DNA of 64,000 nucleotides, taken from positions 5,518,001 through 5,582,000 of the forward strand of contig NC_089431.1 in assembly GCF_026210795.1 (NCBI RefSeq), written 5' to 3'. Shown one piece after another: positions 7,961 through 15,883 of the stretch. Under the pieces are notes generated by a model. It was not told where the DNA came from, ran no database searches, and saw nothing but the letters and a program-made list of their open reading frames with translations. The DNA comes from Rhizophagus irregularis. Taxonomy: Eukaryota. Both the position numbers and the translations under genes were made by a program. Each line of letters begins with the position of its first letter. The stretch's first letter is position 1.

Positions 7961-10900
7961 TCACATTTTGAGAAGATCATTTATAAAAGGATTTAGTAAT
8001 TGAGATGTATAAATAGCTTGTGAATGAGTAATTGGATTATTTTCTACAGTTAAATTATTTGATTTTTTAAATTCTTCTGCTTCTTTAAATTGCTTTTCAA
8101 TCTCATAATGCTCTTGTACTTTTTCAATCTTCATAATCATTTTAAAATCTAATTCATGTGATTTATTATATTTATATGAATAGTAAAATAATTTAACCAG
8201 TTCTTCTACTTCAGTTGCTTTTGGCCTATTAACTGGATTTGAATCCCAACACCTTTTAATTAAATCAATATAACATTTTGGTGCTTCTAAATCATTTATC
8301 TCAGGTCTAATTCCATTACATATATTTAAAGCTAAATTTTGATCATGTGCACAATTAAAAAATGGTTGTTTTCCGGTGGCTATAAAATACATTACCATAC
8401 CAAGGCCATAGATATCTGCTGCTTCAGTATAATCCTTTCCTTTTAATACTTCAGGAGCTACGTAAGGCATAACTCCGTAAATTTGAGTTTGATTCATATT
8501 ATATAGTCCTATATCTGAAATGTAAGGTATATTTTGATTTTGAATTAATATATTTCCTGCATGTAAATTATGATGGACCATGTGATTTTGATGAATTATT
8601 TTCAGGCCATATGTAATATTATATAATAATTTCATCTTGTACTCCCAGCTAAAAATTTTATTATTTTTAATTATCCAATTATCAAAACTTTCACCTTCTA
8701 CATATTTAAGAACTATAATATATTCTTTTGTATCTGGATTTCGAGTTATTCCATATACATCAAGGATATAAGAATTTTTTACCGAATATATTTTAACCTA
8801 TTAAAGTAAAAATTATTATATTATTAAGATTTGTATTAAACTATACCATATTAGTAAGTGAATTACTATACCTTTTCTAAAAATTCCTTGTTAATATTTT
8901 GAGAGATATGTAAGTATTTTAAAGCAACATTTTTATTTGTCGATTCTTTGATACCATTTTCCCATATTGCTGAATATACTATAGAAAAACCTCCTTTACC
9001 TATTTCCTTAATATTATTAAACTGACTGTATGGTATCAATTCACTATTATTTGTTGAGGTAATATGATGCTTTTTGGTAATATGATGCTTTTTAAAATTA
9101 TCCTTATTGCTAGTAAAATTAAAGTCAAATTTAAAGGCATTACTGTTACTACTGTTACTTGAATCACTTTTTTCATTTATATTTATACTGGTAAAACCAT
9201 AGTCTATTTGAAATGGTTTACACCAAGTACATGATGTTGTATTTAAGCATTTTTTGCCACATTTTTCGCAATATTCATCTTGAAGAATCGCAATATATTC
9301 TTTTGTATCTGGATTTTGAGTTAACCCATAAATTTTACGATTAAAATTATATTCTTTAATAGAGTATAGTTTAATAATCTGTTGAATGAAATTGGGTTAT
9401 TATTATACCAAAAAAGCATTTTACTAAATAAAAAAAAGAAATTTCATACCTCATTTAAGTATTCGGTAGTTGTATTTTGAGAATTATGTAAATATTTTAA
9501 AGCAACTTTTTTGTTCTGACTCCTTATATATTTTATTTTATCTTTATCATAAACTAATGGTCCATTTTTCCATATTGCTGAATACACTATATCAGAATCT
9601 GTTTTGATTACTTCTTTAACATCACCAAACTGATCATATGTTGCCCATTCAAACATTATGTCACTATGAAAGTCGATTTTTAATTGCATCTCTTTAATAA
9701 ATATATCAATCGTATAGTTTCCACTAGACCAACTTATAAAATTTTTTTTAATAGAATTTATTTCACATGGTTTACACCATTTAGTAAGTATATTCATATA
9801 TTTTTTACTACACTTTTCACAATATCCATCTTGAAGAACCATTATATAATTTTGTGTATCCAATGGATTTTGAGTTATTCCATAAATTTTGCGAATTTCA
9901 TCATCATTATATTTAATTGAATATCCTTTAGCCTATTTATAAATAATAAGTAATAAATTAATTTATAATAAATCGCATAATTATTCTTTTAATGAATTAA
10001 TGAACATTCATACCTCGATTAAAAATTTATTAGTAATACCTTGAGAATTATAGCATTTTAAAGTAACAACATGATTTTTTCTTATCTGGTTCCTTGTATA
10101 TTTATTTTCATATTCATTATAACATAATTGGCCACTCATCCATATTGCTGAATATATTGTAACCGAATCATTTTTAGCTATTTTGGCTATTTCTTTAATA
10201 TCATTGAATTGATTGTACGGTATCCATTCAACCACTGTATCATTATAAGTGTCAATCTTTAATCGCATTTCTCGAATAAAATTATTGATTTTTTCATTTC
10301 TCCCGTCTAAAACTCTTTGAAAGGATTTTATTTGACATGGTTTACACCATTTATGCTCTAAATCTGTATATTTTTTATCGCATTTTTCACAATATCCATC
10401 TTGAAGGACCATAATAAACTCTTTCGTGTTTGGATTTTGAGACATTCCATAAATACTACGAATATCTGAATGCTTTTTAATGGAGTATATTTTAAAAATC
10501 TGTTAAATAAAAAACAATTGTTAATATAATAAAAATACTTTTTTATTTTAACTGATAAAGAAATTCATACCAATTCATCCGTGATATTTTGCAAAGAACC
10601 ATACAGGTATTTTAATGTAATATTTTTATTCTGGGTTGCCTGGCTCCTTATATATTTCATTTTATCTTTATCATAATTTAGTGGACCATCCTTCCATATT
10701 GCTGAATATGTTATGCCAAAATCTATTTCTTTAATATTACTGAATTGATTATATGATATCCATTCAAATACTATATCAAATGGGTGATCGATTTTTAATT
10801 GCATTTTTTCAATGAAATCAACTTTTTCATTTCCACTGGTCCAGTGTACAAAATTTCCTTTAAATGAATTTATTTGGCATGATTTACACCATTTATAATC

Positions 10901-13900: not shown

Positions 13901-15883
13901 GTTTAGGAAATCATTAATAATATCTTTTGAGTTATGTAAACCTTTTAAAATAATCTGTCTATTTTGATTACTTTGAAGCCTTTTATACTTATTTTCTCCT
14001 TTAAGATATATTAACATATTATTCTTCCATTTTGATGAATACATTGTGAAATTATCATTTATACTTAGTATTTCCTCAATATCAATGAATTGATCATATG
14101 GTATCCATTCAAATACTATTTCCAATGGATTGTCAATTTTTAATTGCATTTCTTGAATGAAATTATCAATCATTCTATTTCCACTAGTCCAATTTGCAAA
14201 ATTTTCTTTAAGATAATTTATTTCACAAAATTTACACCATTCTTCTTTCTTAATACATTTTTCACAATTTGCATATTGAAGAATTATTATATACTCTTTT
14301 GTATTTGGATTTTGAGATATTCCATAAATATTACGAATATTGTTATCTTGATTTTTAATGGAGTATGTTTTACCAATCTATTAAACGAAATAATAAAGTT
14401 ACAATTAAATTAAAATATTTACTAATAAACAAAGAATTTCTTACCTCATTTAGAATCTCATTAGTGATATTTTGTAAGTTGTATAAGTATTTTAAAGCAA
14501 CTTCTTTATTTTGGCTACTCTGACTCCTCCTATACACACTTTTATCCTTATCATAATTTAATGGACCATCACTCCATATTGCTTTAGTAAACCCATCTTC
14601 ATTTATTTCTTTGATATCATTGAATTGATTGTATGATACCCATTCAAATATTATATCTAATGGGCTTTCAATTCTTAATTGCATTTCCTGAATGAAGCTG
14701 TTAATCTTTTCATTTTCATTGGTCCAGTTTGTAAAGTTTTCTTTAAGAGAATTTTTCTGACATGATTTGCACCAATTGTAATTTGCATTTGTATATTTTT
14801 GATTGCATTTTTCACAATATCCATTTTGAAGAACTATTATGTAATCATTTGTATTTGGATTTTGAGATATTCCAAATATATCTTGATTATCTTCATCATC
14901 TTGTAAATTAACCTATTAAAAAAAAAATTAGTATTGAATTATGAGAATTTCTAATTTAAAATAGAGACATTACATACCTTATTTAAAAACTCTCCAGCTT
15001 TATCTTGCAAATTTTGAAAACATTTTAAAGAAACTTTTTTATTTTTCAATCTTATATATTCCTTTTTATCACTATGATAATACAATGGACCATCCTTCCA
15101 TTTTGCCAAATATATAGTAAGATCATTTTCAACTAGTATTTCATTAATATCATCAAACTGATTATATGGAATCCATTCAAATATGATGTCTTTATAATCA
15201 TTAATTTCTGATTGCATTCCTTGAATGAAATTATCAATTTTTTCATTTCCACTGGTCCAGTTTGTAAAGTTTTCTTTAAGTAAATTTATTTGACATGACT
15301 TACACCCGTTTGTGTATAAATTATCGCATCTTTCACAATATTTCTCTTTCTCAAGAACCATAATATACTCTTTTGTATTTGGATTTTGTGATATTCCATA
15401 TATTTTGCGGATTCCAAATTGATGAAATTTAATTGAATATTCGTTGGCCTATTATAAAATAAATAATTAATATTTCAAAAAAATCAAAAATAAAAAAAAT
15501 ATTTAATTAACGAATAAAGAAATTTATACCTCGTTTAGAAATTCATCAATATTATATTGTGAGAATTTTAAAGAAACTTTTATATTCTTAGCCCTTATAT
15601 ATTTTATTTGAAAAAAACTAAATCCTAATCGACCATCCGTCCATATTGCATTAGCAAAATCATTTATTTTGTTAATATTATTGAATTGATCGTATGGTAT
15701 CCATTCAAATAATATATCACTAAAAGAATCAATTTTTGATCGCATTTTTTGAATGAAATTATTAATTTTTTCATTATCACTGATTGTGGTATAATTTTTA
15801 AGAGAATTTATTTGACATGGTTTACACCATTTCCATATTTTATCTGTATATTCGTTGCCACATTCTTCACATAAATTTGACAT
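7961..15883 (-). CDS. Giant tandem kinase-N-lobe repeat protein with C-terminal (pseudo)kinase, paralog B, ~2319 aa. Exons 15883-15530, 15448-14978, 14912-14445, 14377-13898, 13826-13356, 13276-12779, 12703-12230, 12149-11676, 11599-11126, 11053-10571, 10499-10014, 9932-9450, 9378-8872, 8797-7961
   Basis: All 13 introns are GT-AG and phase 0. Exon lengths 354,471,468,480,471,498,474,474,474,483,486,483,507,837 sum to 6960 nt, and I found no internal stop. The ATG context resembles paralog A. Exon 13 has GKGGFS and VALK; exon 14 has the C-lobe (HHNLHAGN, DIG, PYVAPE, DIYGLG, CW..NP.NRP). Confidence 0.85.
11100..12910. repeat. Near-identical ~550-bp tandem repeat (about 3.3 exon+intron copies) inside paralog B
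   Basis: Exon starts at 12703, 12149 and 11599 (period 554/550). The introns (aactgactgactagacaaataaagtaattt) are also nearly identical. Confidence 0.95.

What the first reader, a model, noticed from the sequence alone, without database searches (positions are those of the whole stretch)
7961..15883. Giant protein made of 12 tandem half-kinases (Zn knuckle + N-lobe) capped by one full kinase domain
Seen: splicing 14 exons gives a ~2319-aa ORF. The same module (CxxC..WCxxC, NFTNWTSGN..FIQ.MQLKI, EWIPY, beta1-beta3 with VxLK, alphaC FLNE, YGIxQxPxTKxYIxVL) repeats 12 times, and at the kinase hinge each copy jumps to the next Zn knuckle instead of a C-lobe. The module is the N-terminal half of the ordinary kinases at 22-24, 49-51 and 57-59 kb, with the same intron after FLNE. 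All 12 copies lack GxGxxG (e.g. IVKIDSIP, ILVENDLT, VIKTDSDI, INKNGVAEAIKNNS) but keep the beta3 Lys, and most keep the alphaC Glu. Only module 13 has GKGGFS (8983-9000). Inference: the N-lobe is being used as a repeat or scaffold unit with a hypervariable former G-loop, possibly a sensor or decoy array, loosely analogous to plant tandem kinase immune proteins. I know of no described family with N-lobe-only arrays.
Basis: partly seen in the sequence, partly recalled or inferred. Interest (0 to 1): 0.88.

Follow-up and report, generated by a model that had tools for sequence, protein, structure and literature searches.

The report
Tandem half-kinase arrays in mycorrhizal fungi
A mycorrhizal fungus splices and expresses a 2,318-residue gene made of twelve copies of the front half of a protein kinase ahead of one probably inactive kinase domain, a layout shared by a large gene family in these fungi that likely serves as a multi-site binding or bait array.

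Summary
Fourteen phase-0 exons give 2,318 residues without an internal stop, and RNA shows 11 of 13 introns spliced. The window is Rhizophagus irregularis. In AlphaFold models the modules tested match only the N-lobe of solved kinases (Z about 10).

One correction: the capping kinase lacks the catalytic Asp (HHN) and the alphaC Glu. The R. clarus orthologue shares both losses, so this copy is probably a conserved pseudokinase; 99 of 105 relatives keep the catalytic residues.

The layout is a family: 249 of 394 proteins examined have two or more N-lobes before one C-lobe, in Rhizophagus, Glomus, Acaulospora and Gigaspora. Internal modules lose the glycine loop (8 of 1,119 keep it, against 107 of 118 terminal ones). 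Trees reject a single origin of the arrays. dN/dS is about 0.25, with no region above 1, so the proposed diversifying loop is not supported.

Best reading: a multivalent binding or bait array coupled to a terminal (pseudo)kinase, like the single partial kinase duplication of wheat RWT4/WTK3; an endogenous scaffold is nearly as likely. No ligand is known. Ten paper searches found no description of the architecture.

The parts
15530..15883 (-). Exon 1: start codon, Zn knuckle, two-helix extension and N-lobe beta1-alphaC of module 1
   Evidence: following intron spliced in RNA; equals the start of P0014
15884..15984 (-). Probable 5' untranslated region; one RNA contig ends at 15984 in what looks like a template-switch adaptor (adaptor identity recalled, not from a call)
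   Evidence: loose ends, run X5
14978..15448 (-). Exon 2: beta4-beta5 of module 1, then knuckle to alphaC of module 2
   Evidence: both flanking introns spliced
14445..14912 (-). Exon 3 (module 2/3)
   Evidence: both introns spliced
13898..14377 (-). Exon 4 (module 3/4)
   Evidence: both introns spliced
13356..13826 (-). Exon 5 (module 4/5)
   Evidence: both introns spliced
12779..13276 (-). Exon 6 (module 5/6)
   Evidence: upstream intron spliced, downstream intron not listed
12230..12703 (-). Exon 7 (module 6/7); first of three recent near-identical units
   Evidence: 6 differing positions to unit 8 over about 550 nt; flanking introns not listed
11676..12149 (-). Exon 8 (module 7/8)
   Evidence: downstream intron spliced (reads could come from a sister unit)
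11126..11599 (-). Exon 9 (module 8/9)
10571..11053 (-). Exon 10 (module 9/10)
   Evidence: (one 1,487-nt RNA contig carries exons 10-12 spliced)
10014..10499 (-). Exon 11 (module 10/11)
9450..9932 (-). Exon 12 (module 11/12)
8872..9378 (-). Exon 13: end of module 12, then the altered module 13 (three-Cys knuckle, low-complexity insert) with the only G-loop (GKGGFS, 9000..8983), VALK and an alphaC without Glu
7961..8797 (-). Exon 14: beta4-beta5, hinge, complete C-lobe (Pfam PF07714 E 1.7e-29), C-terminal tail, stop
8567..8575 (-). Catalytic loop reads HHN where the family has HxD: catalytic Asp absent
   Evidence: sequence; same in R. clarus orthologue P0318
1..2872 (-). Second gene of the same kind: at least six modules with the same phase-0 introns, cut by the window start
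   Evidence: four exons 96-100% identical to P0109

Best explanation
The gene encodes twelve non-catalytic kinase N-lobe modules ahead of a predicted pseudokinase, and the modules likely act as a multi-site binding (bait) array whose occupancy would be passed to the terminal domain. Shown: one spliced reading frame; the modelled modules fold as kinase N-lobes behind a Cys4 knuckle and two helices; none has a G-loop or C-lobe. Inferred: (1) A tandem duplication with breakpoints at the kinase hinge and before the knuckle made the first extra half-kinase. Because the family intron after alphaC is phase 0, the new 470-500 nt exon can be copied or lost in frame, which explains 4-17 modules per gene. 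(2) Selection keeps the surfaces shared with the family's ordinary kinases and drops ATP-binding and C-lobe-docking residues, so each module displays a copy of a host-kinase surface. (3) Proteins that target such kinases, most plausibly from intracellular antagonists or non-self cytoplasm, would bind the array and cluster or release the terminal domain. In most family members that domain would phosphorylate; in this gene it would signal by binding a partner.
For: Open frame over 2,318 aa and 11 of 13 introns spliced, while two of three ordinary kinases in the window are broken. N-lobe fold: Z 10.3, rmsd 2.3 A over 91 residues to JAK2 pseudokinase 536-629; Z 10.2 to RIPK2 8-98; the unbiased search of 48,161 chains again ranks kinase N-lobes first (Z 9.1). 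GxGxF in 8 of 1,119 internal versus 107 of 118 terminal modules; alphaC-beta4 loop relaxed, core kept. Omega 0.25. Modules inside one protein are diversified (median 57% identity), yet mostly keep their order between R. irregularis and R. clarus. One origin of the arrays is rejected (AU p 1e-43 on N-lobes, 1e-5 on C-lobes), with the G-loop lost each time (0 of 89, 0 of 40, 0 of 76 internal modules). Precedent: the RWT4/WTK3 fragment is a duplicate of its own kinase's N-terminal part and binds the effector PWT4 directly (passages).
Against: No ligand, partner or phenotype is known. No region has omega above 0.46, whereas the wheat fragment is reported at 0.96; synonymous sites in the loops are near saturation, so the test is weak both ways. 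The second array gene is 96-100% identical to its match P0109, unlike a hypervariable receptor. None of the window's ORFs of 110 aa or more looked like an NLR on reading, and none of those scanned hit one (only some were scanned). Four Gigaspora models place the N-lobes behind a membrane-spanning region, where sensing could be done by the outer part. Expression is low (about 5-fold depth in a quarter of a deep run).
Confidence: 0.4

Rival explanations
1. Endogenous scaffold: the knuckle-helix-N-lobe unit is the surface by which these very numerous kinases dimerise or dock substrates. The array gathers or titrates many paralogous kinases at once, and the conserved pseudokinase end acts as an allosteric partner.
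For: The positions best kept in internal modules are those kept in terminal N-lobes too. Purifying selection. Module order kept across species, and the pseudokinase C-lobe region 81% identical to R. clarus against 60-76% for the repeats. Low divergence of the second gene from P0109. Membrane-anchored Gigaspora forms.
Against: Module number varies widely (4-14; 17 in P0313) and modules within a protein are only about 57% alike, more variety than a fixed scaffold needs. Loss of the conserved alphaC-beta4 loop argues against ordinary docking on a C-lobe in trans. No partner is known.
Confidence: 0.3
2. Structural spacer or autoinhibitory brace: the modules stack into a semi-rigid rod in which each knuckle fills the emptied cleft of the N-lobe before it, setting a distance or holding the terminal kinase off, with no ligand of their own.
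For: Linkers of only 4-6 residues and a cleft-facing beta2 position still hydrophobic in 92% of internal modules. Two-module model pTM 0.67 at pLDDT 87.5. In some structural alignments the residues after beta5 overlay a C-lobe stretch (range end points only).
Against: Six-module model pTM only 0.42 (shallow alignment of 32). A subfamily has little or no knuckle (54 of 175 proteins). Module-specific conservation across species is not needed for a mere spacer.
Confidence: 0.13
3. Near-neutral by-product: in-frame exon duplication in a repeat-rich, highly methylated genome compartment inflates kinase genes, and selection only demands that the copies fold and stay soluble.
For: Kinase genes are high-copy, methylated, accessory genes in this species (passages). 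Phase-0 exons make in-frame growth easy. Copies 7-9 are recent and appear once in P0058. 130 of 394 models have no C-lobe. This gene's kinase is probably dead.
Against: Omega 0.25. Order and pseudokinase state conserved in R. clarus with an 81% identical C-lobe region. One order, N-lobes first and C-lobe last, in nearly all models. G-loop lost in every lineage while the core is kept.
Confidence: 0.12

Closest known systems
Wheat RWT4/WTK3 (Pm24) tandem kinase with its partial kinase duplication (KDup / PKF); bioRxiv 10.1101/2024.04.30.591956 and 10.1101/2024.08.30.610185, passages read
   Same: An N-lobe-type fragment duplicated from the protein's own kinase, placed N-terminal to it, catalytically empty, grouping with its parent kinase in trees.
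   Different: One fragment, not 3-16. The plant fragment lacks the active-site Lys and has dN/dS near 1; here the whole beta1-beta5/alphaC lobe, the Lys and a Cys4 knuckle are kept at omega about 0.25. RWT4 has two whole kinase domains and an NLR partner; neither is shown here. The origin is independent.
Expanded tyrosine-kinase-like (PF07714) kinases of arbuscular mycorrhizal fungi; PMC6123716, PMC3886924, PMC8647823, passages read
   Same: The terminal domain is such a kinase; the module is the N-terminal half of the window's single kinases, with the same intron position.
   Different: The passages seen report only numbers of kinase genes. Pfam names no family for the internal modules, so the arrays are annotated simply as 'protein kinase domain-containing'.
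Kinase-pseudokinase tandems (JAK JH2-JH1, GCN2, plant TKPs); PMC13519141, passages read
   Same: Duplicated, non-catalytic kinase-derived units regulate or accompany a kinase in one chain; JAK structures rank first in Foldseek.
   Different: Those are whole two-lobed domains in two copies; here only N-lobes are repeated. Whole-kinase tandems (NCNC, NCNCNC) exist separately in the same fungi (9 of 394 proteins).
Repeat-bearing fungal sensors (NLRs with WD40/TPR/ANK repeats; Sel1-repeat kinases) - general knowledge, recalled; PMC10197012 passages on NLR diversity
   Same: A variable-number tandem repeat region joined to a signalling domain in a large, lineage-specific family.
   Different: No NTPase domain; the repeat is a 160-residue globular half-enzyme, not a 30-40 residue solenoid unit; no diversifying selection detected.

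Membership tests
Active protein kinase (terminal domain of this gene) | Two-lobed ePK domain | tested here: met
   PF07714 E 1.7e-29 on exon 14 and a weak N-lobe hit on exon 13
Active protein kinase (terminal domain of this gene) | beta3 Lys and metal-binding Asp (DFG position) | tested here: met
   VALK and DIG
Active protein kinase (terminal domain of this gene) | Catalytic-loop Asp (HRD) | tested here: not met
   HHN here and in R. clarus P0318; Asp in 112 of the 115 family C-lobes with a residue at that column (128 aligned, 13 gapped)
Active protein kinase (terminal domain of this gene) | alphaC Glu | tested here: not met
   FLEK; Glu in 115 of 118 terminal modules
Pseudokinase (sequence definition, PMC13519141) | Lacks one or more of VAIK Lys, HRD Asp, DFG Asp | tested here: met
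   HRD Asp absent
Pseudokinase (sequence definition, PMC13519141) | No measurable phosphotransfer | not testable with these tools
   needs an assay
Kinase N-lobe (internal modules) | Five-stranded sheet plus alphaC superposing on solved N-lobes | tested here: met
   Z 9.5-10.6, rmsd mostly 2-3 A over 78-101 residues for model ranges 198-314 and 504-631; Z 9.1 in the wide search. Predicted models of modules 1-6 only.
Kinase N-lobe (internal modules) | Gly-rich ATP-binding loop | tested here: not met
   0 of 12 here; 8 of 1,119 in the family
Plant tandem kinase proteins (TKP) | Two complete kinase or pseudokinase domains | tested here: not met
   one C-lobe only
Plant tandem kinase proteins (TKP) | Integrated partial kinase duplication derived from the protein's own kinase type | tested here: met
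   internal modules group with terminal N-lobes of their own kinase subfamily
Plant tandem kinase proteins (TKP) | Direct binding of a foreign effector, with defence output | not testable with these tools
   no ligand known
Plant tandem kinase proteins (TKP) | Raised dN/dS in the sensor part | tested here: inconclusive
   omega 0.13-0.46 by region on 13 paralogous exons, loops near saturation; allele DNA not available
Plant tandem kinase proteins (TKP) | Linked helper NLR | tested here: inconclusive
   none recognised among window ORFs or those scanned; no genome held
C4 zinc knuckle | Four conserved Cys (CxxC..CxxC) | tested here: met
   12 of 12 internal modules here; 552 of 1,119 in the family, 529 have no knuckle
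C4 zinc knuckle | Zinc binding | not testable with these tools
   inferred from the motif only

The most novel reading that the evidence does not exclude
Arbuscular mycorrhizal fungi have turned the kinase N-lobe into a free-standing repeat domain at least three times independently, and use arrays of up to 16 such half-kinases as an NLR-independent intracellular immune receptor class. Each module is bait for a different kinase-targeting factor, wired to a terminal kinase or pseudokinase: a fungal, multiplied counterpart of the wheat RWT4 decoy.
Probability: 0.28. Interest if true: 0.92.

Novelty: new variant of a known kind. Interest (0 to 1): 0.74.

Why it matters
The kinase N-lobe is not normally viewed as an independent, repeatable domain. 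Here it is the repeat unit of a large gene family in the main plant-symbiotic fungi, invisible to Pfam, under purifying selection and apparently invented several times. What the huge kinase expansion of these fungi does is an open question. This gives one defined subfamily, a built-in contrast (dead internal lobes against an intact terminal lobe), and soluble 160-residue units that can be expressed and used as bait. If the bait reading holds, it is a fungal parallel to plant kinase-fusion immune receptors.

Tried and rejected
Annotation or assembly artefact: rejected. The junction from beta5 into the next module lies inside exons, RNA contigs carry several exons spliced, and 50 of 80 soil-metagenome DNA loci show the same junction. 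The triplicated units 7-9 differ at 6-33 positions and look real, but their number was not checked against DNA reads.

Separate short genes: rejected for 11 of 13 junctions; no single read spans the gene. Exon skipping, which would stay in frame: none among the 11 joints listed at 99% likeness (low depth). The first read lay at 93% was swamped by paralogues. The run search listed no holder on record as RNA; raw RNA runs came by species label.

Single origin of arrays: rejected by AU tests on reduced sets (47 N-lobes, Diversispora and one long-branch protein left out; 37 C-lobes; LG+G4, fast search). Conversion between internal and terminal lobes could bias the N-lobe tree but not the C-lobe tree.

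Known family for the module: no Pfam family above cut-off on the internal-module exons or P0014 (P0318 gave a summed BCS1_N score without a passing stretch); none in NCBIfam; no PDB sequence match under E 0.69. ESM Atlas gave only Mucoromycota clusters named 'protein kinase domain-containing' or hypothetical. The knuckle-helix extension was not folded alone, so its fold is untested. Complex prediction of module 3 with module 4 gave no answer (score 0.00, alignment unused); it is evidence neither way.

Membrane or secreted protein: no hydrophobic segment in this protein. Cluster-member look-up could not be made. No whole genome is held, so genes per genome were not counted. Earlier scan findings: nothing relevant.

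Literature: searches showed no description of N-lobe arrays in their listings. The plant TKP atlas (PMC12282663) was not held. Most subscription papers are outside the library, and no supplements were read; domain tables there could mention these proteins.
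Full report
The observation. On the minus strand, 13 AT-rich GT..AG introns of 65-81 nt, all between codons, join 14 exons into 2,318 residues plus a stop. The chain holds 13 modules of about 160 residues: CxxC..CxxC knuckle, helix, WTSGN, helix, EWIPY, beta1-beta3, alphaC, beta4-beta5. 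After beta5 the chain enters the next knuckle within 4-6 residues (11 of 12 junctions caught by the pattern); only module 13 continues into a C-lobe. All 12 internal modules keep four Cys and the beta3 Lys, nine keep the alphaC Glu, and none has a G-loop. The first six exons match UniRef entry P0014 of Rhizophagus irregularis DAOM 181602 (100% on the query exon), an annotation that stops where the near-identical repeats begin.

It is transcribed as modelled. At 99% likeness, 11 of 13 predicted introns are spliced in raw poly(A) reads (two runs, one sample; 1-19 reads per joint) and in contigs from two other studies; one 1,487-nt contig carries exons 10-12. The two unseen introns lie in units 7-9, which differ at only 6-33 positions. 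Depth is low, and no read spans the gene. An RNA contig ends at 15984 in what I recall as a template-switch adaptor, which would put the start about 100 nt before the ATG.

The modelled modules are N-lobes. An AlphaFold model of modules 1-6 (pLDDT 75.8, pTM 0.42) gave kinases as Foldseek's hits. VIA-align placed single modules on the N-lobe alone: JAK2 pseudokinase 536-629 (Z 10.3, rmsd 2.3 A, 91 residues), RIPK2 8-98, EGFR 700-796. A two-module model (pLDDT 87.5, pTM 0.67) searched against 48,161 chains again ranked kinase N-lobes first (Z 9.1). These are predictions, and modules 7-12 were not modelled.

Correction: the cap is probably dead. It reads HHN for HRD and FLEK for FLNE, and its knuckle and second helix are degraded. 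The R. clarus protein P0318 (2,189 aa) is its orthologue. Its modules match mostly in order (best matches 1, 2, 3, 3, 4, 5, 6, 10, 11, 11, 8, 13; 60-76%), it shares HHN and the lost Glu, it has also lost a G-loop glycine, and its C-lobe region is 81% identical. A catalytically empty domain conserved better than the repeats points to a working pseudokinase. This is unusual in the family: 99 of 105 terminal kinases keep six key residues (118 terminal modules, 13 dropped for gaps).

It is a family. The first search found 659 clusters (120 listed: R. irregularis, R. clarus, Glomus cerebriforme); a search with distant representatives added Acaulospora morrowiae, Gigaspora rosea and Diversispora epigaea. 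Of 394 proteins held, 249 have two or more N-lobe hits before one C-lobe, 130 have N-lobes only (many partial models), 9 are tandems of whole kinases and 6 are other. The set is biased towards repeats by my queries, and split hits inflate module counts. Complete members carry 4-14 modules in the first set and 17 in P0313; Gigaspora forms mostly have 2-4 hits. Fifty of 80 soil-metagenome loci show the beta5-to-next-module junction in raw DNA. A second such gene lies at window 1-2872.

What is kept and lost. Across 1,119 internal and 118 terminal modules from 175 proteins, GxGxF occurs in 8 against 107, the beta3 Lys in 970 against 118, and the alphaC Glu in 729 against 115. The alphaC-beta4 loop, which packs on the C-lobe in kinases (established knowledge), relaxes, while WTSGN-helix, EWIPY, beta2 and beta4-beta5 stay. 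About half of the internal modules lack the knuckle; 54 of 175 proteins have little or none. On 13 window exons (terminal exon and two near-identical copies left out) omega is 0.25 overall, 0.26 in the core, 0.14-0.38 in the loops by model, and at most 0.46 in any region; pairwise counting gave a median of 0.45 over 117 of 120 pairs. Selection is purifying; the predicted diversifying G-loop is not seen, though the loops are saturated and hard to align.

Origin. Internal modules group with terminal N-lobes of their own subfamily in three large groups: this Rhizophagus/Glomus type, a second Rhizophagus type, and Acaulospora/Gigaspora (115 rows, quick tree). One clade of internal modules is rejected (AU p 1e-43; the two Rhizophagus types together p 5e-5), as is one clade of array-bearing C-lobes (p 1e-5) (reduced sets, simple model, few single kinases as comparators). 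The G-loop is absent from 89 of 89, 40 of 40 and 76 of 76 internal modules in the other lineages and present in 7 of 8, 24 of 26 and 13 of 13 terminal ones. I infer at least three origins. Since the repeat starts at the knuckle and ends at the hinge while the intron sits after alphaC, the first event was a mid-exon tandem duplication; afterwards the phase-0 exon can multiply in frame, as units 7-9 did recently. P0058, a gappy R. irregularis model close to this gene, shows that unit once.

Mechanism. Repeated invention, loss of only the ATP- and C-lobe-facing features, and position-specific conservation of diversified modules fit an array of binding units. The nearest precedent is wheat RWT4/WTK3, where a single N-lobe-type duplicate of the protein's own kinase binds the effector PWT4 (passages of two preprints). 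I commit to a bait or sensor array coupled to the terminal domain (0.40). Against it: low omega, near-identity of the second gene to P0109, no ligand, no recognised helper, and membrane-anchored Gigaspora models. An endogenous scaffold for the family's many kinases explains these as well (0.30); a spacer or brace (0.13) and near-neutral growth (0.12) follow. Everything beyond architecture, fold prediction, splicing and selection is inference.

What is known. Papers on these fungi note the kinase expansion only as counts (passages of PMC6123716, PMC3886924, PMC8647823 and PMC8778642). A 2026 pseudokinase review mentions no N-lobe-only units in the passages found (PMC13519141), and a fungal immunity review gave nothing on them in its passages (PMC10197012). 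Ten searches, the last for N-lobe + Rhizophagus + kinase, listed no description. Subscription papers and supplements were not seen.

Verdict: real, expressed, selected and apparently undescribed as an architecture; a new variant of kinase fusions with partial kinase duplications, multiplied into a repeat protein. Interest 0.74.

Noticed in passing
window 1-2872, minus strand: Second half-kinase array gene, at least six modules, same phase-0 introns, running off the window start; four exons 96-100% identical to P0109.
   Followed up: partly
window 45953-46951, minus strand: 332-aa ORF with about 2.6 tandem 47-residue repeats followed by an aerolysin / ETX_MTX2-type pore-forming domain (Pfam E 4e-6 and 7e-6, above cut-off); a possible fungal defence protein in this kinase-rich region.
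   Followed up: partly
window 49493-51099 (minus) and 57129-58604 (plus): Two of the three single kinases look broken: an in-frame stop just after the DLG motif in the first, a 1-nt frameshift before the alphaC intron in the second. Pseudogenes or assembly errors.
   Followed up: partly
P0339, P0347, P0355, P0361 (Gigaspora rosea); P0382: Gene models with 2-5 predicted membrane segments, or an Ig-like Big_5 region (P0382), in front of 2-4 N-lobe hits and a kinase: a receptor-like layout, or fused neighbouring genes.
   Followed up: partly
P0334, P0335, P0341, P0354, P0357, P0366, P0374, P0376: Tandems of two or three whole kinases (NCNC, NCNCNC) in Rhizophagus and Gigaspora, resembling plant tandem kinase proteins.
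   Followed up: partly
OCT59_0083xx-0084xx proteins (for example P0003, P0008, P0018, P0025, P0035, P0051, P0060): Many knuckle-less array genes share one 4.9-Mb contig and close locus numbers, suggesting a large gene cluster.
   Followed up: no
ESM Atlas structure row 6: A cluster of 184 'hypothetical' Mucoromycota proteins of about 136 aa matches a single module (TM 0.75 by the row): stand-alone N-lobes or truncated gene models.
   Followed up: no
P0074, P0351, P0379: Models that combine N-lobe modules or a kinase with Sel1 repeats; possibly fused neighbouring genes.
   Followed up: no
window 60319-61947 (plus) and 53340-53675 (minus): ORFs that look like the F-box/LRR-type and TLDc-type expanded genes of these fungi (labels recalled); Pfam gave no hit at E 0.001.
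   Followed up: no
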